18,062 nucleotides of DNA. Source: a virus. Shown here piece after piece: positions 3,464 to 13,052 of the stretch (position 1 is its first letter; every line of letters starts with the position of its first letter). Location of the stretch: the UHGV virus genome UHGV-0041835. One strand, 5' to 3'. The notes beneath the pieces were generated by a model, which saw only the letters and a list, made by a program, of their open reading frames with translations, made no database searches and had not been told where the DNA came from. Both the position numbers and the translations under genes were made by a program.

Positions 3464-3548
3464 CAACTTACTCCACAAAAATCAGACCAGAACGCCAATT
3501 ACAAGCAAAAATCAACAAAACAGTATTAGTTGATTGTTATCTCTGACT

Positions 3549-3686
3549 TCATACTCCTGTTCCTGTCAGGGTTTTGGCGTAATTCTTCAGTATTCGGTAA
3601 TCGGTCAAAACAGAACCGAGGAAACGATATAAGCGCAGACGCCCCCAGCGGTGGCGAAGAAGTTCTGCCATATTAAACTCAAACAT
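3549..3686 (-). CDS. ylcG: Small conserved lambdoid protein, YlcG-like (45 aa)
   Basis: Not in the ORF track (under 60 aa). Hand translation gives [45 protein letters not shown]. The ATG overlaps the rusA stop (TGATG), and the position between rusA and Q matches DLP12. Confidence 0.55.
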   Translation of the reverse strand: MFEFNMAELLRHRWGRLRLYRFLGSVLTDYRILKNYAKTLTGTGV

Positions 3687-4048
3687 CATTCATTCCCCAT
3701 TTCGGTGATGGTCAGTTCCAGCCTCCCACCTTTGGTAACAGGCATCTTCACAACGCGGTAATCAACGACCTGAGCATCATCCAGCCAGAAACCTGCTTTA
3801 GTGAGTGCGTCAAAAGCGGCTTTTTGCAGATTATCCAGGTCACGGCGACGGCGATCCGGCATGTGGCACTCAATGCGGATTTTCACAGGCATAGCCAGGC
3901 CGATATCCAGCATTGCGTTTTTAATGATTCGGGCGACGTTATCGCGGTATGCCTGCCCCTCTGCGCTGACGTGCGTGCGCCCGCGATTATGGCGGTAATA
4001 GCGATTATTGCTCGGAGGCCAGGGTAATGTGATGCTGTAGGTATTCAC
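3686..4048 (-). CDS. rusA: Holliday-junction resolvase RusA
   Basis: 120 aa, [37 protein letters not shown]..., matching prophage RusA as recalled. The start codon is GTG. Confidence 0.9.
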
Positions 4049-4262
4049 GCCTTAATAACCCCCTCTTTCAGCCACATAACCTGTGTTCTCGCCATACCTT
4101 CCAGCGCGCATTCTTTTGCATATGCAGCATCGACTTGCTTGGCATGCCCTTTACCGGCAATCTTCTGTATGCGCTAAACCTAGATAGAATCCACTCTGTG
4201 CACATTGAAGCCCGCTCTATGCTTTCTTTCAGGTATTGAAGGGATTGAGATGGGCTAAGCAT
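4045..4262 (-). pseudogene. Probably frame-disrupted small gene upstream of rusA (N-terminal and C-terminal parts in different frames)
   Basis: The 64-aa track ORF (4068-4262) starts next to the upstream gene's stop. A second frame is open from 4173 to a TGA that overlaps the rusA GTG (GTGA) and encodes ...[28 protein letters not shown], but it has an in-frame TAG at 4174-4176 and no usable start. Both ends look translationally coupled to neighbours while the middle changes frame. Confidence 0.3.
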
Positions 4263-5299: not shown

Positions 5300-5736
5300 G
5301 CAGCCCGATCTCCCCATCGCGCTTTCCATTCGAGAGCCAGTCGCGCTTCGTCTGACCACTTAACGCCACGCTCTGTACCGAATGCCTGTATAAGCTCTAA
5401 TAGCTCCGCAAATTCGCTTACACGCATCCTGCTGGTTGACTGGCCTATTACCACAAAGCCATTCCCGGCAAGGTTAGGAACAACATCCTGCTGCTTTAAT
5501 GCTGCGGTAAACACACACTTCCAGCTTTCTGCATCCAGCCAGCGACCATGCCATTCAACCTGACGAGAGACGTCACCTAAGCAGGCCCATAGCTTCCTGT
5601 TTTGGTCTAAGCTGCGGTTGCGTTCCTGAATGGTTACTACGATTGGTTTGGTTGGGTCTGGAAGGATTTGCTGTACTGCGTGAATAGCGTTTTGCTGATG
5701 TGCCGGAGATCGAATTTCAAAGGTTAGTTTTTTCAT
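5296..5736 (-). CDS. ninB: NinB (Orf) recombination mediator protein
   Basis: 146 aa from MKKLTFEIRSPAHQQNAIHAVQQILPDPTKPIVVTIQERNRSLDQNRKLWACLGDV..., matching lambda NinB as recalled. The track ORF begins 6 codons upstream. Confidence 0.9.
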   Translation of the reverse strand: MKKLTFEIRSPAHQQNAIHAVQQILPDPTKPIVVTIQERNRSLDQNRKLWACLGDVSRQVEWHGRWLDAESWKCVFTAALKQQDVVPNLAGNGFVVIGQSTSRMRVSEFAELLELIQAFGTERGVKWSDEARLALEWKARWGDRAA

Positions 5737-5749
5737 GACTTCCCTCTCC

Positions 5750-5784
5750 CCCAAATAAAAAGGCCTGCGATTACCTGCAGGCCT
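5750..5784 (-). terminator. tR2-like intrinsic terminator between ren and ninB
   Basis: GC-rich hairpin AGGCCTGC...GCAGGCCT (5761-5784); the minus strand follows it with TTTTATTTGGG. Position matches lambda tR2, upstream of the nin region. Confidence 0.55.
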
Positions 5785-5809
5785 GTTATTAGCTCAGTGA
5801 TGTAGATGG

Positions 5810-6100
5810 TCATCTTTTAACTCCATATACCGCCAATATCCGTTTCATCGTGGCACTCTGGCGACACTCCTTAAAAATCAGGTTCGTGCTCATCTTTCCT
5901 TCCCGTTCTTCCTTGGTAGCAAACCGGTAATACACCGTTCGCCAGACCTTACCTTCGATAACCAGAAGACCTGCCCGTGCCATTTTAGCCGCGGCCTGAT
6001 TTATGCTGGTTACTGTTGCGCCTGTTAGCGCGGCAACGTCCGGCGCACAGAAGCTATTATGCGTCCCCAGGTAATGAATAATTGCCTCTTTGCCCGTCAT
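5810..6100 (-). CDS. ren: Ren protein
   Basis: 96 aa, MTGKEAIIHYLGTHNSFCAPDVAALTGATVTSINQAAAKMARAGLLVIEGKVWRTVYY..., matching lambda Ren. Start overlaps the P stop. Confidence 0.85.
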   Translation of the reverse strand: MTGKEAIIHYLGTHNSFCAPDVAALTGATVTSINQAAAKMARAGLLVIEGKVWRTVYYRFATKEEREGKMSTNLIFKECRQSATMKRILAVYGVKR

Positions 6101-6798
6101 ACACTTGCTCCTTTCAGTCCTAACTTAGCTTTAATTTCTGCGATCTTCGCCAGCGCCTGAACACGATTTAGAGGTCTGCCGCCCATGACAGGAAGTTGTT
6201 TTACTGGTTCAGGTATCGTCTCACCACGGTTAATTCGCGCTGTCATACAGGTCAGTTCATCGGCAGCCTTGCGTCGTAATTCCGCGTCAGTCAGCGCATT
6301 GGCCCGCATGTTCTGGTACAGGTTGGTAACCAGCCAGTAGTGCGCGTTCGATTTCCACGGATAAGACTCTGCATCCGGATACAGGCCTCGCTTCCGGCAA
6401 TACTCGTAAACCATATCAACCAGCTCGCTGACGTTTGGCAGTCCGGCGATAACGGATGCTTCTTCCCGGCACCATGCAACAAACTGCCCGGGTGATGGCA
6501 GAAATGGTCGATTCTGCCGACGGGCTACGCGCATTCCTGCGTTAACCTGTTCCATTGTGGTGATCCCGTTTTCCCGGAAAGCCAGAACCCACTGGCGGCG
6601 GATTTCGTTCAGTTCGTTCTGGTCACGGTTAGCCAGACTCGCCGGGAAAGTTGCCAGTAACTGGCTGAACACACCGTTGATGATCTGCGCTACCTGCTGT
6701 ACCTGCGGCTTTTCGTCGTACTGTTCCGGCATGTTGTTGGCGATCCGACGCATCTGCTCACGGTCAAAATTAACCATCTGTGCGGCGATGTTTTTCAT
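6097..6798 (-). CDS. P: Replication protein P (DnaB helicase loader)
   Basis: 233 aa, MKNIAAQMVNFDREQMRRIANNMPEQYDEKPQVQQVAQIINGVF..., near-identical to lambda P as recalled. Confidence 0.9.
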   Translation of the reverse strand: MKNIAAQMVNFDREQMRRIANNMPEQYDEKPQVQQVAQIINGVFSQLLATFPASLANRDQNELNEIRRQWVLAFRENGITTMEQVNAGMRVARRQNRPFLPSPGQFVAWCREEASVIAGLPNVSELVDMVYEYCRKRGLYPDAESYPWKSNAHYWLVTNLYQNMRANALTDAELRRKAADELTCMTARINRGETIPEPVKQLPVMGGRPLNRVQALAKIAEIKAKLGLKGASV

Positions 6799-7694
6799 AA
6801 ATCCACCCCGTAAATCCAGTCAGTGTTTGTCAGGTCGAGTTTTGGTTTGCAGGCTGTCACACCTGCCTGTTGCTTGTTACGGTTGATTTCGAGCTGGGTC
6901 CACTTGTCGCGGAGTTTGGCCGGGCTCAGCACGTTACCGGACCAGAAGTTGTCCTGGCATGCCCAGCGGAACAGTACACACATGTCGCGATGGTTACGTC
7001 CGTCACGTTCACGCATCAGGCGGATATCGTTAGCCCACCCTGCAAAATTCGGTTTTCTGGCTGATGGCGCGATGGTCTTCACCATGTCAAACATCCATTC
7101 TGCGGCGGTCAGGTCTTCTGCTGTCCCCCACTTGCTGCCGCTCTGAATTGCAGCATCCGGTTTCACCACAGAAAGGTCGTTTTCTGGCTGGTCAGAGGAT
7201 TCGCCAGAATTCTCTGACGAATAATCTTTTCTTTTTTCTTTTGTAATAGTGTCTTTTGTGTCCCCCTGTTTTGAGGGATAGCAATCCCCCAATTTGAGGG
7301 ATGTTTTATCCCTCGTTTTAGGGGATTTTCCCTCGTTTTGAGGGATACACCATTCTGAGATGTTTTTATTTGGTCCAAACATGCCGCCTTGCTGCTTGAT
7401 AATATTCATTCTGACGAGTTCTAACTTGGCTTCATTGCACCGTTTGACGGGTAACTTTGTAATCTCGCTAAGTTGAGAATCGGTGATTCTGTCCATTGGT
7501 TTATTCCATCCATAGGTTTTACGCAGAATGGCAAGCAGCACTTTAAACTGTCGCTTGGTCAGATCTGCGCCTGAATAAGCCTCAAGCAGCATATTTGATA
7601 GTCTGGCGTAACCATCATCGAGATCTGCCACATTACGCTCCTGTTTGGCAAAGTTACCTCTGCAGAAGTTGAGTATTTTTGCTGTATTTGTCAT
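6795..7694 (-). CDS. O: Replication initiator protein O
   Basis: 299 aa, MTNTAKILNF...TDWIYGVDL, near-identical to lambda O as recalled. Contains the origin iterons internally. Confidence 0.9.
   Translation of the reverse strand: MTNTAKILNFCRGNFAKQERNVADLDDGYARLSNMLLEAYSGADLTKRQFKVLLAILRKTYGWNKPMDRITDSQLSEITKLPVKRCNEAKLELVRMNIIKQQGGMFGPNKNISEWCIPQNEGKSPKTRDKTSLKLGDCYPSKQGDTKDTITKEKRKDYSSENSGESSDQPENDLSVVKPDAAIQSGSKWGTAEDLTAAEWMFDMVKTIAPSARKPNFAGWANDIRLMRERDGRNHRDMCVLFRWACQDNFWSGNVLSPAKLRDKWTQLEINRNKQQAGVTACKPKLDLTNTDWIYGVDL
7201..7346. repeat. ori-lambda-type replication origin: four iterons (about 7261-7346) plus adjacent AT-rich region (about 7201-7260), inside the O gene
   Basis: Four roughly 18-bp repeats, each an inverted repeat of form (T)CCC(T/C)(C/A)...TTTGAGGG(A): tccccctgttttgaggga, atcccccaatttgaggga, atccctcgttttagggga, tccctcgttttgaggga. 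Flanked by the T-rich tract tctttt cttttttcttttgt. Confidence 0.8.
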
Positions 7695-7726
7695 AATGAC
7701 TCCTGTGGATTGATCCAGTAATGACC

Positions 7727-8023
7727 TCAGAATTCCATCTGGATTTGTTCAGAACGCTCGGTTGCCGCCGGGCGTTTTTTATTGGTGAGTCCATCAAGCG
7801 CATACTTAAAAGCCCTGCTAATCGGACTGATGTCTGATGCCATTCCGAAAGCACACAAGACCGAAGCAATAAATCTCCAGTCCGTTCTGCTTATCTTCGA
7901 TTCATGACAGCCAATCATCTTTGCCAGACCGCGCTGGGTAATAGCTGACAGATTGATAAGTAAATCTGTTTCTGCGCGATCAACGTCACGCTGTGATAGT
8001 TTGCTGTAACTTGTTCTTTCCAT
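7727..8023 (-). CDS. cII: CII transcriptional activator (C-terminus lambda-like, N-terminus divergent)
   Basis: 98 aa. The C-terminal TNKKRPAATERSEQIQMEF is identical to lambda CII as recalled; the N-terminal two-thirds differ. Position between cro and O. Confidence 0.8.
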   Translation of the reverse strand: MERTSYSKLSQRDVDRAETDLLINLSAITQRGLAKMIGCHESKISRTDWRFIASVLCAFGMASDISPISRAFKYALDGLTNKKRPAATERSEQIQMEF

Positions 8024-8108
8024 TTCTTAAGATTTCCAATAGTGAATAGTTAGTTGAAAGGTATGCATGGAAACGCATATGGCCTTAGTTGGTCAGATAT
8101 CTTGGAAC

Positions 8109-8154
8109 TCGCTTTTCAGCGACGTAGGACGAATGTCCGTTGTTACAAAGAGCG
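8109..8154 (-). promoter_or_regulatory. nutR candidate: boxA plus boxB hairpin
   Basis: Minus-strand sense, just after the cro stop: CGCTCTTTGTAACAA (boxA-like) followed by TCGCT-GAAAA-AGCGA (boxB stem with GAAAA loop). The same boxB loop and core occur at the nutL candidate. Confidence 0.6.
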
Positions 8155-8164
8155 GATCCGCTTA

Positions 8165-8380
8165 TTAAGCGGCTTTGTGTTCCGGCGGGAACACGTCATC
8201 AAGACTGACTTTTGCGCCTAACTTGTTTAGGCACGCAACAAGAGCACGGCATGTTTTAAGGTCTGGGAAGCGACGACCAGATTCCCAATGTCCGATAGCT
8301 CCCTGTGTGCATCCAACTGCCTTAGCAAGTGTTGTTTGAGAGATATTCAGTGACTCTCGATATTTTCGTAGGTTGCTCAT
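8165..8380 (-). CDS. cro: Cro-like HTH repressor
   Basis: 71 aa, MSNLRKYRESLNISQTTLAKAVGCTQGAIGHWESGRRFPDLKTCRALVACLNKLGAKVSLDDVFPPEHKAA, with an HTH (QTTLAKAVGCTQGAIGHW). ATG at 8380 has GGAGGG upstream; the longer track ORF runs through the operator region. Divergent from cI. Confidence 0.75.
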   Translation of the reverse strand: MSNLRKYRESLNISQTTLAKAVGCTQGAIGHWESGRRFPDLKTCRALVACLNKLGAKVSLDDVFPPEHKAA

Positions 8381-8491
8381 ATGCCCTCCATAGTAAACAC
8401 GAATAAAAAAATACAATATGTACTTTGCGAATACAAGTAAAAATACACATTGTGCATGGATGGTTCCAGTACAGAGCGTAATAATAAGGAC
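8381..8491. promoter_or_regulatory. Immunity-region divergent promoter/operator region (OR with PR and PRM)
   Basis: AT-rich intergenic space between divergent cro and cI. Contains TACA...TGTA-type inverted-repeat motifs (for example tacaatatgtact at 8412-8424) that recur near the PL candidate. A possible -10 TAATAA ends about 8 nt before the cI ATG, suggesting a leaderless PRM-like transcript. Confidence 0.6.
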
Positions 8492-9151
8492 ATGAAAATG
8501 AAATGGTATGAACTGGCTAGATCCAGAATGAAAGAGCTCGGCATAACTCAAGAGAAGTTAGCCGAAGAGCTAGGTATGACGCAGGGTGGGATTGGACACT
8601 GGTTGCGCGGATCTCGTCATCCATCTCTTAGTGATATTGGTGTGGTGTTTAAATACCTTGGTATTGATAACATATCATTCAACCACGACGGGACATTTTC
8701 ACCTGTTGGCGAATACTCATCGGCCCCAGTTAAAAAACAATATGAGTACCCTGTTTTTTCTCATGTTCAGGCTGGGATGTTCTCTCCAGAACTCAGAACC
8801 TTTACCAAAGGCGATGCGGAGAGATTGGTAAGCACAACCAAAAAAGCCAGTGACTCTGCATTCTGGCTTGAGGTTGAAGGTAACTCAATGACCGCACCAA
8901 CAGGTTCCAAACCCAGCTTTCCTGACGGGATGTTAATTCTGGTTGACCCTGAGCAAGCTGTTGAGCCCGGCGATTTCTGCATAGCCAGACTTGGTGGTGA
9001 TGAATTTACCTTCAAGAAACTGATCAGGGATAGCGGTCAGGTGTTTCTACAGCCACTAAACCCACAATACCCAATGATCCCATGCAATGAGAGTTGTTCC
9101 GTTGTGGGGAAAGTTATCGCCAGCCAATGGCCTGAAGAGACGTTTGGGTGA
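8492..9151 (+). CDS. cI: CI repressor: divergent N-terminal HTH domain fused to a lambda-type C-terminal S24 autopeptidase domain
   Basis: C-terminal half is near-identical to lambda CI as recalled, including the Ala-Gly cleavage site (VQAGMF) and the Ser/Lys dyad (GNSMTAP, FKKLIRD). The N-terminal HTH ([18 protein letters not shown]) differs. Start is uncertain among ATG 8450, 8492 and 8498. Confidence 0.9.
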
Positions 9152-9190
9152 TGAAACCACTTTTATCTACAATTTACAGGGCGGTAAACA

Positions 9191-9748
9191 TTGGCAAAAA
9201 TAGATGATTATCAGCCAAGCCAAGTAGAAGTTGATAAAGTACTTTATTGTAAAAAAATAGTTAACTTTTCTGGCGTTAAATGGAAACAGAAACCAAGTCG
9301 CTCTGATATGTGGCTACAAGCCCATATCATCCCCTTGGATGAGGATTGTATACCTATACAAGGGCTAAAGTTTGAACTGAAATGGAAACCAGATCAGGAT
9401 TCAGAACCTGATGACCCGATTTCTTACCCTAAAATAAATATTATTGCTTTCTATCATAACAAGAGGGTTTTCGCGGTAGATACCTATCACTTTGACAAAC
9501 ACACGAATAGTTACAAGGTCGATCATCCGAAGTACCAAGATATCATTTACGGTGCTCACTACCATGTATACTATGAAGAAGCTGGATACTATAGTGATAG
9601 AATAGCGTTTCCAATCGAAGATGACATAAACCCAGATGACCTGGTAGGGTATTGGAATTACTTCTGTAAACATCTGAACATAACTTACTCTGGGAGAATA
9701 CCTTTACCGCTTGAAGATGAGTCGGGGCAAATGGGGTTTGGAATATGA
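9191..9748 (+). CDS. Hypothetical protein A (185 aa), first gene of an uncharacterised cassette downstream of cI
   Basis: Open frame beginning at TTG 9191; the only in-frame ATG is 39 codons in. No recognised motif. Acidic and Tyr/His-rich soluble protein with no predicted TM segment. Visibly more AT-rich than flanking phage genes. Its stop overlaps the start of gene B. Confidence 0.6.
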   Translation: MAKIDDYQPSQVEVDKVLYCKKIVNFSGVKWKQKPSRSDMWLQAHIIPLDEDCIPIQGLKFELKWKPDQDSEPDDPISYPKINIIAFYHNKRVFAVDTYHFDKHTNSYKVDHPKYQDIIYGAHYHVYYEEAGYYSDRIAFPIEDDINPDDLVGYWNYFCKHLNITYSGRIPLPLEDESGQMGFGI

Positions 9749-10497
9749 TGTGCTCAACAGTGATCTCACAACTAGGTTTCGAATGCCATCCAATAGGCAA
9801 GACCTTGAGAATTATCAGTCCATTCACTTACTGTGATGATGGAGAGCATGTCGGTGCCTTTATCCGTGAAGTCAATGGTAGGTATTTAGTTAGTGACAGA
9901 TGCGATGCCTTAATGAATATGGAGGCAAGAGGGATCTCGCTTACCAAAAAACGACTTGATGAGATACGACAATTACTGCTTAAAGAAGGCGCAGAACTCA
10001 ATGCTCGAGGAGAAATCATTGCTTGGGCAACAGAAAAGGATGTCGGTGCGATTACATCGAACATAATTAGAGCTGGTATACTCGCATCAACTTTGTCGTT
10101 AGACTGGTATCAGCCAGTTCAAGCTGAAAAGTTTGAAAGTATGGTTATTGATTATCTATATCACACAGAGCTTAGAGACGCACTTTCTCTTCGTGAAAAC
10201 GTATATGGCTTGAGTGGACATCAAATTACCGTCCCTGTAACAATAAAAACCGACATACCTAAATACGTTTTTACATCAAGCGTGAAACACGGAGGAAGCT
10301 GGAATAGTGCTTACTCATTGCTTGGGAAACTAATTGATCTTAAAGCTTCAAGTGAGGAGTATAACAACAGATTTGTTGTTATAGACAGCGAAGCAATTGG
10401 TGATCAAATGCAACAACTCTCCTTACTCTTCCATGAATCAAGCCAAGTTCTACCATTCTCCAAAAGAGAGACTTGGGTTAAGAGACTTGCAGCATAA
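9745..10497 (+). CDS. Hypothetical protein B (250 aa), second gene of the uncharacterised cassette
   Basis: ATG at 9745 or 9748 overlaps the stop of gene A (ATGATG), implying translational coupling. No recognisable family from the sequence. Followed 5 nt later by an intrinsic terminator. Confidence 0.65.
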   Translation: MMCSTVISQLGFECHPIGKTLRIISPFTYCDDGEHVGAFIREVNGRYLVSDRCDALMNMEARGISLTKKRLDEIRQLLLKEGAELNARGEIIAWATEKDVGAITSNIIRAGILASTLSLDWYQPVQAEKFESMVIDYLYHTELRDALSLRENVYGLSGHQITVPVTIKTDIPKYVFTSSVKHGGSWNSAYSLLGKLIDLKASSEEYNNRFVVIDSEAIGDQMQQLSLLFHESSQVLPFSKRETWVKRLAA

Positions 10498-10502
10498 TAC
10501 AA

Positions 10503-10531
10503 CCCGGCCTCAGCGCCGGGGTTTCTTTTCC
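10503..10531 (+). terminator. Intrinsic terminator ending the cI-cassette operon (tImm-like)
   Basis: Stem CCCGGC/GCCGGG with loop CTCAGC, followed by GTTTCTTTTCC. Confidence 0.6.
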
Positions 10532-10543
10532 TCACGTTCGCCC

Positions 10544-10553
10544 NNNNNNNNNN
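10544..10553. other. Run of 10 N: assembly gap or contig junction
   Basis: Literal NNNNNNNNNN. The roughly 35 bp on each side are near-identical copies (cctcagcgccggggtttcttttcctcacgttcgccc versus cctcagcgccgggttttctttgcctcacgttcgccc). Confidence 0.95.
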
Positions 10554-10762
10554 CCTCAGCGCCGGGTTTTCTTTGCCTCACGTTCGCCCACCTAAAAACA
10601 CATAACCAATTATATTTATTGAAAAATAAATAGATGCAACCCACTAAACCACGCAATTCTGATCTCTCCTTACATCGCCGAGGCAATACATCCACGCTAA
10701 AAAACAACACTATTAAATACAAAGCGTTATAAAAAACCACGCCAACTTACAACAAATTGTAT

Positions 10763-10791
10763 TGATCTTGTAAAGTACATATCGTACTATT
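10763..10791 (+). promoter_or_regulatory. PL candidate promoter with overlapping OL operator motif
   Basis: TTGATC (10763-10768), a 17-nt spacer, then TACTAT (10786-10791). The spacer contains AGTACATATCGTACT (10774-10788), an inverted repeat that matches the OR-region motif AGTACATATTGTA. Confidence 0.5.
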
Positions 10792-10836
10792 TAACCGTCA
10801 GCAGGACGCTGGAAGCCAAATGGAACAGACTGGCAG

Positions 10837-10881
10837 GCTCTTTAAACAACGTCGACTCTCGACTACGTGGCTGAAAAGCCA
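10837..10881 (+). promoter_or_regulatory. nutL candidate: boxA plus boxB
   Basis: GCTCTTTAA(ACAA) boxA-like at 10837-10849 and TGGCT-GAAAA-AGCCA hairpin at 10868-10881, in the leader upstream of N. Confidence 0.6.
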
Positions 10882-10979
10882 GATCACCCAACCACATAAG
10901 CTGTGGGATGCAATGCCGAAGCAACCGTCTCAGGAGGAGCTTCGAGATTGCATCGCCAAAGTTTATTCGGGAGGAATCC

Positions 10980-11252
10980 ATGTCCAGAAAAACAGAATTT
11001 AAAGGCACCGCAGCTTCTCGCCGTAGAGCTCGTCGCGCAAATCTGCAAAGTCAGGAGGCGATCAGCTCCGACAAGCTACACAGGCCAACCCCTTCACGAG
11101 TGGTCTTGCAATGCAAGCTCAAACCAGCAATGAGAGCAGAAGTGATAACTCTGACAACGTTGACCAGAAAATATGAAGGTTCAACTTGTCTTCCGAACGT
11201 AGCTCTTTACGCGGCAGGCTACCGGAAATCAAAACAACTGACGGCGAGATGA
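10980..11252 (+). CDS. N: Antitermination protein N (Arg-rich motif type, H-19B/933W-like)
   Basis: 90 aa from MSRKTEFKGTAASRRRARRANLQ... (N-terminal arginine-rich motif), with C-terminal ...LPNVALYAAGYRKSKQLTAR resembling the N proteins of P22-like and Stx phages as recalled. GGAGG lies 5-9 nt upstream of the ATG; the track ORF is extended upstream. Confidence 0.75.
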   Translation: MSRKTEFKGTAASRRRARRANLQSQEAISSDKLHRPTPSRVVLQCKLKPAMRAEVITLTTLTRKYEGSTCLPNVALYAAGYRKSKQLTAR

Positions 11253-11268
11253 TAAATTCATTTGCTAA

Positions 11269-11850
11269 TTACTTGTTTTTGCCATGCTTATCCTGAGCGA
11301 TAAGTTCATCCATAAGGCTGTCTGCCTTCCCGGCAAACCTAATGTAGCACTCATGTCTATAGCTTTCAGGGATAACGAAACGGTCGGTATCAGGATATCC
11401 AACAGCAGGAGGCCTTCGAACGAGGAGTCCTTTTTTGAGCAATGAAATTGATTCATGAGCGCCCTTTTCCGTTTGTAGCTGGTTATTAGCGGCTACAGCG
11501 AATGCCAAATACGCTCTTTCTCCAAGAGTTAACGAATCAAACAAATCTTGCACATATTTTTCTTCTTTAGATTTGCGCTTCTGAGCAGCGAATACCTCAA
11601 TTCTTTCAGTCACAGCGTGATAAGCGGAATTAACAACGCCGTTAAGCACATAGCTAACGCAAAACAACAGGATGTAATACATCCAGTAATGAGGAAGGAT
11701 TTCTGGATTATGCAGGTTTATCCATTCTTTTACGCTTACCGGCATAACAATAATCAATATGATCAGGATGATTAGCATATGAATCAACTGTTTAAGTGTC
11801 ATTCCTTGCAGGAAAAAATGCATTAGTTCCTGCCACCATGAGTTGTTCAT
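11269..11850 (-). CDS. sieB: Superinfection exclusion protein B (SieB)
   Basis: 193 aa from MNNSWWQELMHFFLQGMTLKQLIHMLIILIILIIVMPV..., with two hydrophobic TM segments and a C-terminal ...IRFAGKADSLMDELIAQDKHGKNK. On the strand opposite N, as expected for sieB. Confidence 0.8.
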   Translation of the reverse strand: MNNSWWQELMHFFLQGMTLKQLIHMLIILIILIIVMPVSVKEWINLHNPEILPHYWMYYILLFCVSYVLNGVVNSAYHAVTERIEVFAAQKRKSKEEKYVQDLFDSLTLGERAYLAFAVAANNQLQTEKGAHESISLLKKGLLVRRPPAVGYPDTDRFVIPESYRHECYIRFAGKADSLMDELIAQDKHGKNK

Positions 11851-12264: not shown

Positions 12265-12400
12265 TAGTGGCCTTTATTTTTGGCATAAATAACAGAATAA
12301 ACACTGCACTGTGTATTCATTCCAACGAGTGAATACACGGAGCAATGTCGCTCGTAACTAAACAGGAGCCGACTTGTTCTGATTATTGGAAATCTTCTTT

Positions 12401-12815: not shown

Positions 12816-12887
12816 GCGCGGCGTTACCGCATACCAATTACGCTTCACTCGAGGCGTTTTTCGTTATGTATAAATAAGGAGCACACC

Positions 12888-13052
12888 ATGCAATATGCCA
12901 TTGCAGGGTGGCCTGTTGCTGGCTGCCCTTCCGAATCTTTACTTGAACGAATCACCCGTAAATTACGTGACGGATGGAAACGCCTTATCGACATACTTAA
13001 TCAGCCAGGAGTCCCAAAAAATGGATCAAACAATTATGGCTATCCAGACTAA
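12888..13052 (+). CDS. cIII: CIII (inhibitor of FtsH-mediated CII degradation)
   Basis: Not a separate track ORF. Hand translation gives [54 protein letters not shown] (54 aa). TAAGGA lies 8 nt upstream of the ATG. Confidence 0.8.
   Translation: MQYAIAGWPVAGCPSESLLERITRKLRDGWKRLIDILNQPGVPKNGSNNYGYPD

What the first reader, a model, noticed from the sequence alone, without database searches (positions are those of the whole stretch)
8165..9151. Hybrid immunity module: lambda-type CI C-terminal domain with a non-lambda DNA-binding domain, and matching Cro
The CI C-terminal half, including the RecA-stimulated cleavage site and Ser/Lys dyad, is essentially lambda, whereas the N-terminal HTH domain is different. 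Cro is also non-lambda. CI and Cro share a similar putative recognition helix (CI: [17 protein letters not shown]; Cro: GCTQGAIGHWESGRRFP), consistent with both binding one operator set distinct from lambda's. CII likewise has a lambda C-terminus on a divergent N-terminus. This points to mosaic recombination joints inside genes and a likely distinct immunity specificity that remains SOS-inducible.
Basis: partly seen in the sequence, partly recalled or inferred. Interest (0 to 1): 0.45.

Follow-up and report, generated by a model that had tools for sequence, protein, structure and literature searches.

The report
Known Sakai-type lambdoid phage immunity switch
This is the on/off switch of a lambda-like E. 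coli phage: its repressor has lambda's self-cleaving rear half joined to a different DNA-reading front half, a combination already catalogued in the Shiga-toxin phages of E. coli O157:H7 and found in about one in nine complete E. coli genomes, so it is ordinary.

Summary
The cI gene (8492-9151, +) encodes a repressor whose residues 84-219 match lambda CI at 135 of 136 positions. The Ala-Gly cleavage site and the Ser/Lys dyad are both kept. Residues 1-83 match lambda at only 19 of 101 aligned columns. Cro (8165-8380, -) is an HTH_3 protein unrelated to lambda Cro and 35% identical to the CI N-domain. The two share the helix motif TQG(G/A)IGHW. The last 20 residues of CII are identical to lambda's. 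DNA breakpoints against lambda lie inside cII (7789/7790) and inside cI (8740/8741).

The interpretation also holds, but none of it is new. CI and Cro are 100% identical to those of the Stx1-converting phage and Stx2 phage II of O157:H7 Morioka (AP005153/4), whose six 17-bp operators are already annotated. The VT2-Sakai/Sp5 record carries the same module apart from one codon. The whole window is 100% identical to phage PhiR63_2. The non-lambda segment occurs in 631 of 5426 complete E. coli genomes. Published work shows that cloned Sp5 cI acts as a type-specific repressor and that Sp5 is mitomycin-inducible. The same domain mosaic was described for phage epsilon34 in 2008.

I found no biochemical measurement of the cognate CI on its operators. 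Verdict: real, correctly read, already known, low interest.

The parts
7727..8023 (-). cII (98 aa). Residues 79-98 (nt 7727-7789) are lambda-identical; residues 1-78 are divergent (HK022/Stx-phage type).
   Evidence: Pfam Phage_CII 116 bits; alignment; DNA joint at 7789/7790
8001..8033 (+). PRE-like establishment promoter. TTGC-N6-TTGT (8001-8014) lies across cII codons 4-8, followed by a 13-nt gap and the -10-like TAAGAT (8028-8033). It points towards cI. Inferred, not tested.
   Evidence: Only TTGCN6TTGY match on either strand of the 18-kb window; same position and geometry as lambda PRE (established knowledge)
8109..8155 (-). nutR-like element: boxA CGCTCTTTG and boxB hairpin TCGCTGAAAAGCGA, between cro and cII.
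   Evidence: Sequence inspection; a matching nutL-like element GGCTCTTTAA...TGGCTGAAAAGCCA lies at 10835-10895 (+)
8165..8380 (-). cro (71 aa), HTH_3 type and a paralogue of the CI N-domain. The predicted recognition helix TQGAIGHWESG is aa 25-35 (nt 8276-8308). A GGAGGG Shine-Dalgarno sequence lies upstream.
   Evidence: 100% identical to Cro of AP005153 and many Stx phages
8409..8425 (.). OR1 (cro-proximal) AAATACAATATGTACTT. It covers the -10-like TATTGT of PR.
   Evidence: Identical to the 'putative operator' in AP005153; 0 mismatches to ARTACAN4GTAYT on both strands
8441..8457 (.). OR2 AAATACACATTGTGCAT. It abuts the weak -35 (TGGATG, 8457-8462) of the proposed PRM, with its centre about -43 from ATG 8492.
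   Evidence: promoter assignment is an inference by analogy to lambda
8467..8483 (.). OR3 (cI-proximal) CAGTACAGAGCGTAATA. It overlaps the PRM -10-like AATAAT (8480-8485).
8492..8740 (+). cI N-terminal DNA-binding domain (aa 1-83), VT2-Sa/Sp5 type. Helix 2 is QEKLAEEL (aa 20-27) and helix 3 is [11 protein letters not shown] (aa 30-40). Q20 and Q31 align with lambda Q33 and Q44.
   Evidence: Pfam HTH_3 41 bits; phmmer alignment to lambda repressor 1LLI
8741..9151 (+). cI linker plus C-terminal S24 autocleavage/oligomerisation domain (aa 84-219), lambda type. A94-G95 is nt 8771-8776, Ser132 is 8885-8887 and Lys175 is 9014-9016.
   Evidence: 135/136 aa and 93.4% nt identity to lambda; 26 differences in synonymous codons against 1 in a non-synonymous codon; Pfam Peptidase_S24 99.7 bits
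10715..10789 (.). OL: three operators upstream of N. OL3 is 10715-10731 AAATACAAAGCGTTATA, OL2 is 10748-10764 TACAACAAATTGTATTG and OL1 is 10773-10789 AAGTACATATCGTACTA.
   Evidence: OL1 is identical to the AP005153 annotation; the other two differ from it by one base each.

Best explanation
This is the immunity (lysis-lysogeny) switch of a lambda-like temperate coliphage, and it carries the VT2-Sakai/Sp5 immunity type.

Proposed mechanism:
- CI dimers bind three 17-bp operators in OR and three in OL through a diverged lambda-like HTH domain. The half-site consensus is AARTACA.
- This binding represses PR and PL, which overlap OR1 and OL1. CI at OR2 probably activates PRM.
- Cro is a small HTH_3 paralogue of the CI N-domain with nearly the same recognition helix. 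It binds the same operators during lytic growth.
- CII, acting at a TTGC-N6-TTGT site inside its own gene, drives cI from a PRE-like promoter to establish lysogeny.
- DNA damage induces the prophage because the linker and C-terminal domain are the lambda allele. RecA* would stimulate Ser132/Lys175-mediated cleavage at Ala94-Gly95, separating the DNA-binding domain from the dimerisation domain.

The module arose by homologous or illegitimate exchange among lambdoid phages. The joints lie in the CI interdomain linker and near the C-terminal tail of CII.

Shown here: gene content, domain identities, DNA breakpoints, operator repeats, and identity to known phages. Inferred: promoter positions, activation at OR2, cooperative binding, and the cleavage itself.
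For: Domain assignments. Alignments and catalytic residues. DNA breakpoints against lambda.

Operators. Six sites lie in two clusters of three, at the cro-cI intergenic region and upstream of N. No such cluster appeared in 200 shuffles, and there were 41 matches against 13.7 expected. The three OR sites are identical to those annotated in AP005153.

CI/Cro helix co-variation across window, ST64T and epsilon34. TTGCN6TTGY is unique in the window and sits at the lambda-equivalent place.

Identity to known phages. CI and Cro are 100% identical to the Stx1-phage proteins. The window is 100% identical to PhiR63_2.

Literature. Cloned Sp5 cI prevents zygotic induction and acts only in strains carrying the cognate cI, and Sp5 lyses cells after mitomycin C (PMC3355084). 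This CI belongs to 'Clade I' of Stx-phage repressors, about 61% identical to lambda CI (PMC8951638).
Against: I found no direct biochemical measurement of this CI or Cro on these operators in the searchable library. The only EMSA located used lambda CI on VT2-Sa operators and gave micromolar, near non-specific affinities (PMC10742460).

The simple sigma-70 scan did not call PR, PRM or PL, so the promoter placement is by eye and by analogy.

Operator spacings are 32/26 bp in OR and 25/33 bp in OL. These differ from lambda's 24/23 and 24/20 despite the same cooperativity domain, so the cooperative pairing cannot be read from lambda.

The cI start codon is ambiguous (8492, 8498, or the annotated 8456).
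Confidence: 0.9

Rival explanations
1. The module is a recent hybrid between lambda itself and an Stx phage. On this reading it is a newly formed chimera specific to this phage rather than an old, widely shared allele.
For: Flanking replication genes O and P are 97.4% identical to lambda, and the CI C-domain is 99% identical in protein.
Against: The same CI protein occurs in short-tailed Stx phages that are otherwise unlike lambda: 100% identical in AP005153, with the N-domain 100% identical in AP005154, 2851, 1717 and the PA phages. The non-lambda segment is in 631 of 5426 complete E. coli genomes. The C-domain DNA is only 93.4% identical to lambda, with 26 synonymous-codon differences against 1 non-synonymous. 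It is 404/411 identical to the Stx-phage copy but about 382-384/411 to lambda. So the junction is old and the allele has diverged under purifying selection.
Confidence: 0.05
2. The CI/Cro pair is a decayed or non-functional remnant of a cryptic prophage, and the similarity to working switches is only historical.
For: One database copy (VT2-Sakai AP000363) carries a stop codon at CI codon 31. Many E. coli prophages are defective.
Against: The window copy has intact ORFs for cII, cro, cI, O, P and N, and intact operators. The window is 100% or 99.8% identical to sequenced phage genome records PhiR63_2 and ev207. The synonymous excess shows continuing selection on CI.
Confidence: 0.03
3. CI and Cro recognise different DNA sites despite the similar helix. 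Cro might act only on a subset of the sites, or on other sequences.
For: The helices differ at 6 of 17 positions of the quoted strings. The flanking residues differ (CI L38-R39 against Cro E-S).
Against: The N-terminal half of helix 3 (TQG-IGHW) is nearly the same in both. In epsilon34 both proteins carry the parallel substitutions Q to K/R, I to V and G to S/C. There is only one family of repeated palindromes in OR and OL. In 434 and P22, the precedents with paralogous Cro, both proteins share the operators (established knowledge).
Confidence: 0.05

Closest known systems
Immunity region of VT2-Sakai/Sp5, Stx1-converting phage and Stx2 phage II of O157:H7 Morioka V526 (AP000363, AP005153, AP005154); 'Clade I' CI of Stx phages (PMC8951638)
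   Same: CI is 219/219 aa identical and Cro 71/71 identical to AP005153. The three OR operators are identical. OL1 is identical, and OL2 and OL3 each differ by one base. The order cII-cro-OR-cI is the same.
   Different: The genomic background differs. Here the module sits in a long-tailed lambda-like phage (PhiR63_2/ev207) with lambda-type O and P, whereas the Stx phages have an HK022-like O and a different P. The genes between cI and OL also differ: here a DUF6978-like/DUF1828 pair.
Bacteriophage lambda CI (and the lambda switch)
   Same: The linker and C-terminal domain are 135/136 identical, including A-G, Ser and Lys. The N-domain has the same HTH_3 fold class, with Q33 and Q44 equivalents and an acidic helix 2. 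The layout also matches: three operators in OR and three in OL, each 17 bp, a PRE-like CII site, and nutL/nutR.
   Different: The N-domain is only about 19-30% identical and lacks lambda's N-terminal arm and about 18 residues. The operator half-site is AARTACA rather than TATCACC, and no lambda operators are present. Cro has a different fold family. Operator spacing differs. rexAB is replaced.
Salmonella phages L/ST64T (C2, Cro) and epsilon34 (gp46, gp47)
   Same: These are the nearest heterologous relatives. ST64T has a C2 N-domain 55% identical and a Cro 69% identical, and its recognition helix TQGAIGHW is the same as in the window's Cro. Epsilon34 gp46 pairs a related N-domain with a lambda-like C-domain (about 80% to lambda) and has operators WTACRAWWTGTAT. 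Its CII also has a lambda-like C-terminus.
   Different: Different hosts and P22-like virions. ST64T/L C2 carries a P22-like rather than a lambda-like C-domain. Epsilon34's helix has K/R in place of Q.
Phage 434 and P22 switches
   Same: They work the same way: Cro is a small HTH_3 paralogue of the repressor N-domain and shares its operators.
   Different: Sequence similarity is marginal (PDB matches to P22 C2 and 434 repressor at E of 0.01-1). Operator sequences and C-domains differ.

Membership tests
LexA/CI-type S24 autocleaving repressors | Peptidase_S24 domain above the curated threshold | tested here: met
   PF00717 99.7 bits against a cut-off of 23.3, residues 87-209
LexA/CI-type S24 autocleaving repressors | Ala-Gly scissile bond and Ser/Lys catalytic dyad | tested here: met
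   A94-G95, S132 and K175 align with lambda A111-G112, S149 and K192
LexA/CI-type S24 autocleaving repressors | RecA*-stimulated self-cleavage | not testable with these tools
   Inferred from 135/136 identity to lambda. Sp5 carrying the same CI type lyses cells after mitomycin C (PMC3355084).
Lambda-repressor-like HTH (HTH_3/XRE) DNA-binding domain | HTH_3 profile match in both the CI N-domain and Cro | tested here: met
   CI 41 bits and Cro 46.4 bits against a cut-off of 23; alignment to lambda repressor N-domain structure 1LLI
VT2-Sakai/Sp5 immunity type (Stx-phage CI Clade I) | Same CI N-domain and same Cro | tested here: met
   100% aa identity to the AP005153 CI and Cro. The VT2-Sakai copy differs at one codon.
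VT2-Sakai/Sp5 immunity type (Stx-phage CI Clade I) | Same operator sequences | tested here: met
   OR1-3 and OL1 are exact matches; OL2 and OL3 each differ by one base
VT2-Sakai/Sp5 immunity type (Stx-phage CI Clade I) | Homoimmunity in superinfection tests | not testable with these tools
   Requires lysogens and phage stocks
Lambda immunity (imm-lambda) | Lambda CI N-domain and lambda operators (TATCACCGC-type) | tested here: not met
   19/101 identity in the N-terminal part. No lambda OR1-like site, and no consensus hits in OR or OL.
Lambda Cro family | Match to the lambda Cro fold family | tested here: not met
   Only HTH_3-type Pfam families were hit. The global alignment to lambda Cro scores 13.
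CII transcriptional activators | Phage_CII profile and a TTGC-N6-TTGC/T target at the gene's own 5' end | tested here: met
   PF05269 116 bits; unique TTGCTGTAACTTGT at 8001-8014

The most novel reading that the evidence does not exclude
The dimerisation, cooperativity and cleavage domain is 99% identical between this repressor and lambda CI, and the same domain at 76% identity or more is attached to at least four different DNA-binding domains in enterobacterial prophages. Heteroimmune prophages sharing a cell could therefore form mixed CI dimers or octamers. That would couple or mutually destabilise their switches, a repressor-level crosstalk or incompatibility between prophages that are formally heteroimmune. 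Nothing here tests this; it rests only on the sequence identity of the oligomerisation domain.
Probability: 0.2. Interest if true: 0.45.

Novelty: already known. Interest (0 to 1): 0.12.

Why it matters
The finding matters little in itself. It is a correct reading of a textbook case of lambdoid mosaicism, with exchange at a domain boundary inside cI and near the tail of cII. The particular allele is the widespread Sakai/Sp5 immunity type, which controls Stx2 expression in many O157:H7 strains.

The practical point is that the same switch also occurs in non-toxigenic lambda-like phages of commensal E. coli, such as PhiR63_2 and ev207. These should therefore be homoimmune with, and able to recombine with, Stx phages.

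The cognate CI-operator affinities appear not to have been measured. That is a gap for people modelling Stx-phage induction.

Tried and rejected
1. I tested whether this repressor is the biochemically characterised BAA2326 (O104:H4) repressor, which is also about 61% identical to lambda CI. Its footprinted operators (ATAACTGTGCGTAATG and others) and its gene neighbourhood (BsuBI restriction-modification, no N) do not match, so it is a different repressor.

2. I checked the JH2010/JH2016 Stx2a switch study. By primer sequence, its cro genes are not this type, although the JH2016 N gene end matches the window's N.

3. A third cluster of operator-like motif hits at 12296-12346 turned out to be the two arms of a hairpin and was rejected as an operator.

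4. The generic promoter scan found no PR, PRM or PL. Promoters were therefore placed by analogy only.

5. The original Sato 2003 paper could not be opened. So I could not check whether immunity tests were reported there.

6. I did not run structure prediction. The sequence evidence was already decisive.

Full report
WHAT IS THERE

The window is the early region of a lambda-like phage, drawn in the opposite orientation to the lambda map. It is 100% identical over its full length to Escherichia phage PhiR63_2 (PV340574.1) and 99.8% identical to phage ev207.

Around the finding the genes are:
- P, 6097-6798 (-), and O, 6795-7694 (-).
- cII, 7727-8023 (-).
- cro, 8165-8380 (-).
- A 111-bp intergenic region.
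- cI, ending at 9151 (+).
- A two-gene cassette, 9191-10497 (+).
- An operator/promoter region.
- N, ending at 11252 (+).

CHECKING THE OBSERVATION

Pfam assigns CI an HTH_3 domain plus Peptidase_S24, Cro an HTH_3 domain, and CII the Phage_CII family.

Global alignment with lambda CI gives 135/136 identities from Tyr84 to the C-terminus. Upstream of that, only 19 of 101 aligned columns are identical. Ala94-Gly95, Ser132 and Lys175 correspond to lambda Ala111-Gly112, Ser149 and Lys192. The single C-terminal difference is Leu112 in place of a lambda Trp.

Cro shows no meaningful similarity to lambda Cro. It is 35% identical to the CI N-domain over 62 residues, pairwise E=9e-13. Both proteins carry T-Q-G-(G/A)-I-G-H-W at the position that aligns with helix 3 of lambda repressor.

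CII shares its last 20 residues with lambda CII and little else.

One nuance applies. The N-domain is not a foreign fold but a diverged lambda-repressor-like HTH. It is 30% identical to the lambda N-domain over 50 residues. Gln20 and Gln31 stand at the positions of lambda Gln33 and Gln44, and helix 2 is acidic.

WHERE THE JOINTS ARE

blastn against lambda aligns three stretches:
- 5380-7789 at 97.4%, covering P, O and the 3' end of cII.
- 8741-9152 at 93.4%, covering the cI linker and C-domain.
- 10554-10668 at 89.6%, matching the stretch just downstream of rexB in lambda.

Nothing aligns in 7790-8740. The nucleotide alignments show abrupt transitions at CII codon 79 and CI codon 84. The second lies in the interdomain linker, ten residues before the cleavage site.

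Within the C-domain, 26 nucleotide differences from lambda fall in synonymous codons and one in a non-synonymous codon. The Stx-phage copy is 404/411 identical to the window but only 382/411 identical to lambda. The junction is therefore old, and the domain is under strong purifying selection. It is not a recent cross with lambda.

OPERATORS AND REGULATORY SIGNALS

The intergenic region holds three 17-bp imperfect palindromes: 8409-8425, 8441-8457 and 8467-8483. Three more lie upstream of N: 10715-10731, 10748-10764 and 10773-10789.

Over the twelve half-sites the consensus is A-A-R-T-A-C-A. Positions 5 and 6 (A, C) are invariant, and A occupies position 2 in 11 of 12.

The degenerate pattern ARTACAN4GTAYT, allowing up to 2 mismatches, gives 41 matches against 13.7 expected. 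Clusters of three sites within 80 bp never occurred in 200 shuffles. A third apparent cluster at 12296-12346 is simply the two arms of a hairpin.

No lambda-type operator is present in OR or OL.

By eye, the -10-like TAT(T/C)GT of PR and PL lies at the centre of OR1 and OL1. OR2 abuts a weak -35 for a PRM whose -10-like AATAAT (8480-8485) would start transcription at about ATG 8492. That would give a leaderless cI mRNA, as in lambda. These promoter assignments are inferences, because the generic scan did not call them.

TTGC-N6-TTGT occurs once in the window. It lies across cII codons 4-8 and points towards cI, followed at lambda-like spacing by TAAGAT. This is a PRE-like promoter. nutR-like and nutL-like boxA/boxB elements are present.

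IS IT KNOWN?

Yes. The 1.1-kb cro-cI stretch matches 118 phage records at 90% identity or more. These include the Stx1-converting phage and Stx2 phage II of O157:H7 Morioka V526 and the PA series, which cover about 95% of the stretch.

By protein search, the CI N-domain and Cro are 100% identical in phages 2851, 1717, YYZ-2008 and many others. The VT2-Sakai copy of the N-domain is 98.8% identical. The AP005153 CI is identical to the window's over all 219 residues. That record already annotates the six operators, PR and PRM as putative features.

The non-lambda 951-bp segment is present, at 80% coverage or more, in 631 of 5426 complete E. coli genomes. In the large protein collection, the 90% cluster of this CI type holds 1686 member sequences, against 1175 for the cluster of the lambda type.

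Published work:
- Llarena et al. place this CI in 'Clade I', about 61% identical to lambda CI (PMC8951638).
- Xu et al. showed that cloned Sp5 cI prevents zygotic induction of Sp5. It acts in strains with the cognate cI but not in EDL933, which carries 933W. Sp5 lyses cells after mitomycin C (PMC3355084).
- Villafane, Casjens and colleagues described the same architecture for epsilon34: a lambda-like C-domain, an N-domain about 50% identical to L, VT2-Sa and Ni12, operators WTACRAWWTGTAT, and a CII with a lambda-like C-terminus and TTGCN6TTGC/T sites (PMC2629481).

The only binding data I found for VT2-Sa operators used lambda CI and gave micromolar affinities (PMC10742460). The well-characterised BAA2326 repressor is a different protein with different operators.

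COMPARATIVE SUPPORT FOR SHARED CI/CRO SPECIFICITY

The helix-3 sequences are:

| Phage | Repressor | Cro |
|---|---|---|
| Window | TQGGIGHW | TQGAIGHW |
| ST64T/L | TQGAIGHW | TQGAIGHY |
| epsilon34 | TKGAVSHW | TRGAVCHY |

The substitutions in epsilon34 occur in both proteins together. This is what is expected if the pair reads one operator set. The operators of all three phages are variants of ATAC(A/G)-N3-(C/T)GTAT.

DOMAIN SHUFFLING IN GENERAL

I took 120 database proteins whose C-domain is about 60% or more identical to the window's. Their N-terminal parts fall into nine clusters at 60% identity. Four of these clusters are attached to C-domains at least 76% identical. The lambda-type C-domain is thus a shared cassette, and the window's protein is one common combination.

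VERDICT

What remains untested, as far as I could find, is the biochemistry of the cognate repressor-operator interaction. Also open is which operator pairs bind cooperatively. The spacings are 32/26 bp in OR and 25/33 bp in OL, against 24/23 and 24/20 in lambda.

A speculative reading not excluded by the data is that repressors sharing this C-domain form mixed oligomers in polylysogens. Interest is low.

Noticed in passing
window 9191-10497 (+): A two-gene cassette sits exactly where lambda has rexA-rexB: downstream of cI on the same strand and before the terminator and OL. The genes are 185 aa (DUF6978-like, phrog_2017) and 250 aa (DUF1828, phrog_1960), with an overlapping stop/start. They give weak-to-moderate matches to the PADLOC candidate defence system PDC-M24 (A: E=4.8e-4; B: E=4.7e-10). 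This is probably a prophage-expressed exclusion or defence moron.
   Followed up: partly
window 10503-10600: The N-run at 10544-10553 is a scaffold join, not hidden sequence. The roughly 36 nt on either side are overlapping copies of one stretch of PhiR63_2. The real phage has a single hairpin terminator (CCCGGCCTCAGCGCCGGG followed by a T-run) after the DUF1828 gene, followed by sequence homologous to the region downstream of lambda rexB.
   Followed up: yes
L003 (AP000363.1 VT2-Sakai) 3501-4160: The deposited VT2-Sakai sequence has TAG instead of CAG at CI codon 31, the Gln that aligns with lambda Gln44 in the recognition helix. This explains why its cI is annotated as a truncated 510-nt CDS. 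The AP005153 copy and the window are intact.
   Followed up: partly
window 12296-12346: An inverted repeat GTGTATTCA...TGAATACAC lies downstream of N. It produces spurious operator-motif hits and is probably a terminator-like hairpin.
   Followed up: partly
window 12875-12933 (+): Rfam finds the lambda cIII thermoregulator element (RF01804, 88.5 bits) at the start of cIII.
   Followed up: no
window 8409-8483 and 10715-10789: Operator centre-to-centre spacings are 32 and 26 bp in OR and 25 and 33 bp in OL. They are not mirror-symmetric between OR and OL, and they differ from lambda although the cooperativity domain is the same.
   Followed up: no
window 11269-11850 (-): A 193-aa ORF lies opposite to N and is annotated SieB (superinfection exclusion) in PhiR63_2.
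   Followed up: no
PDB entry 28tn chain A: A solved 82-aa 'lambda repressor-like protein' matches the window's Cro over residues 1-69 at E=4.5e-17. A structure for this Cro family therefore exists.
   Followed up: no
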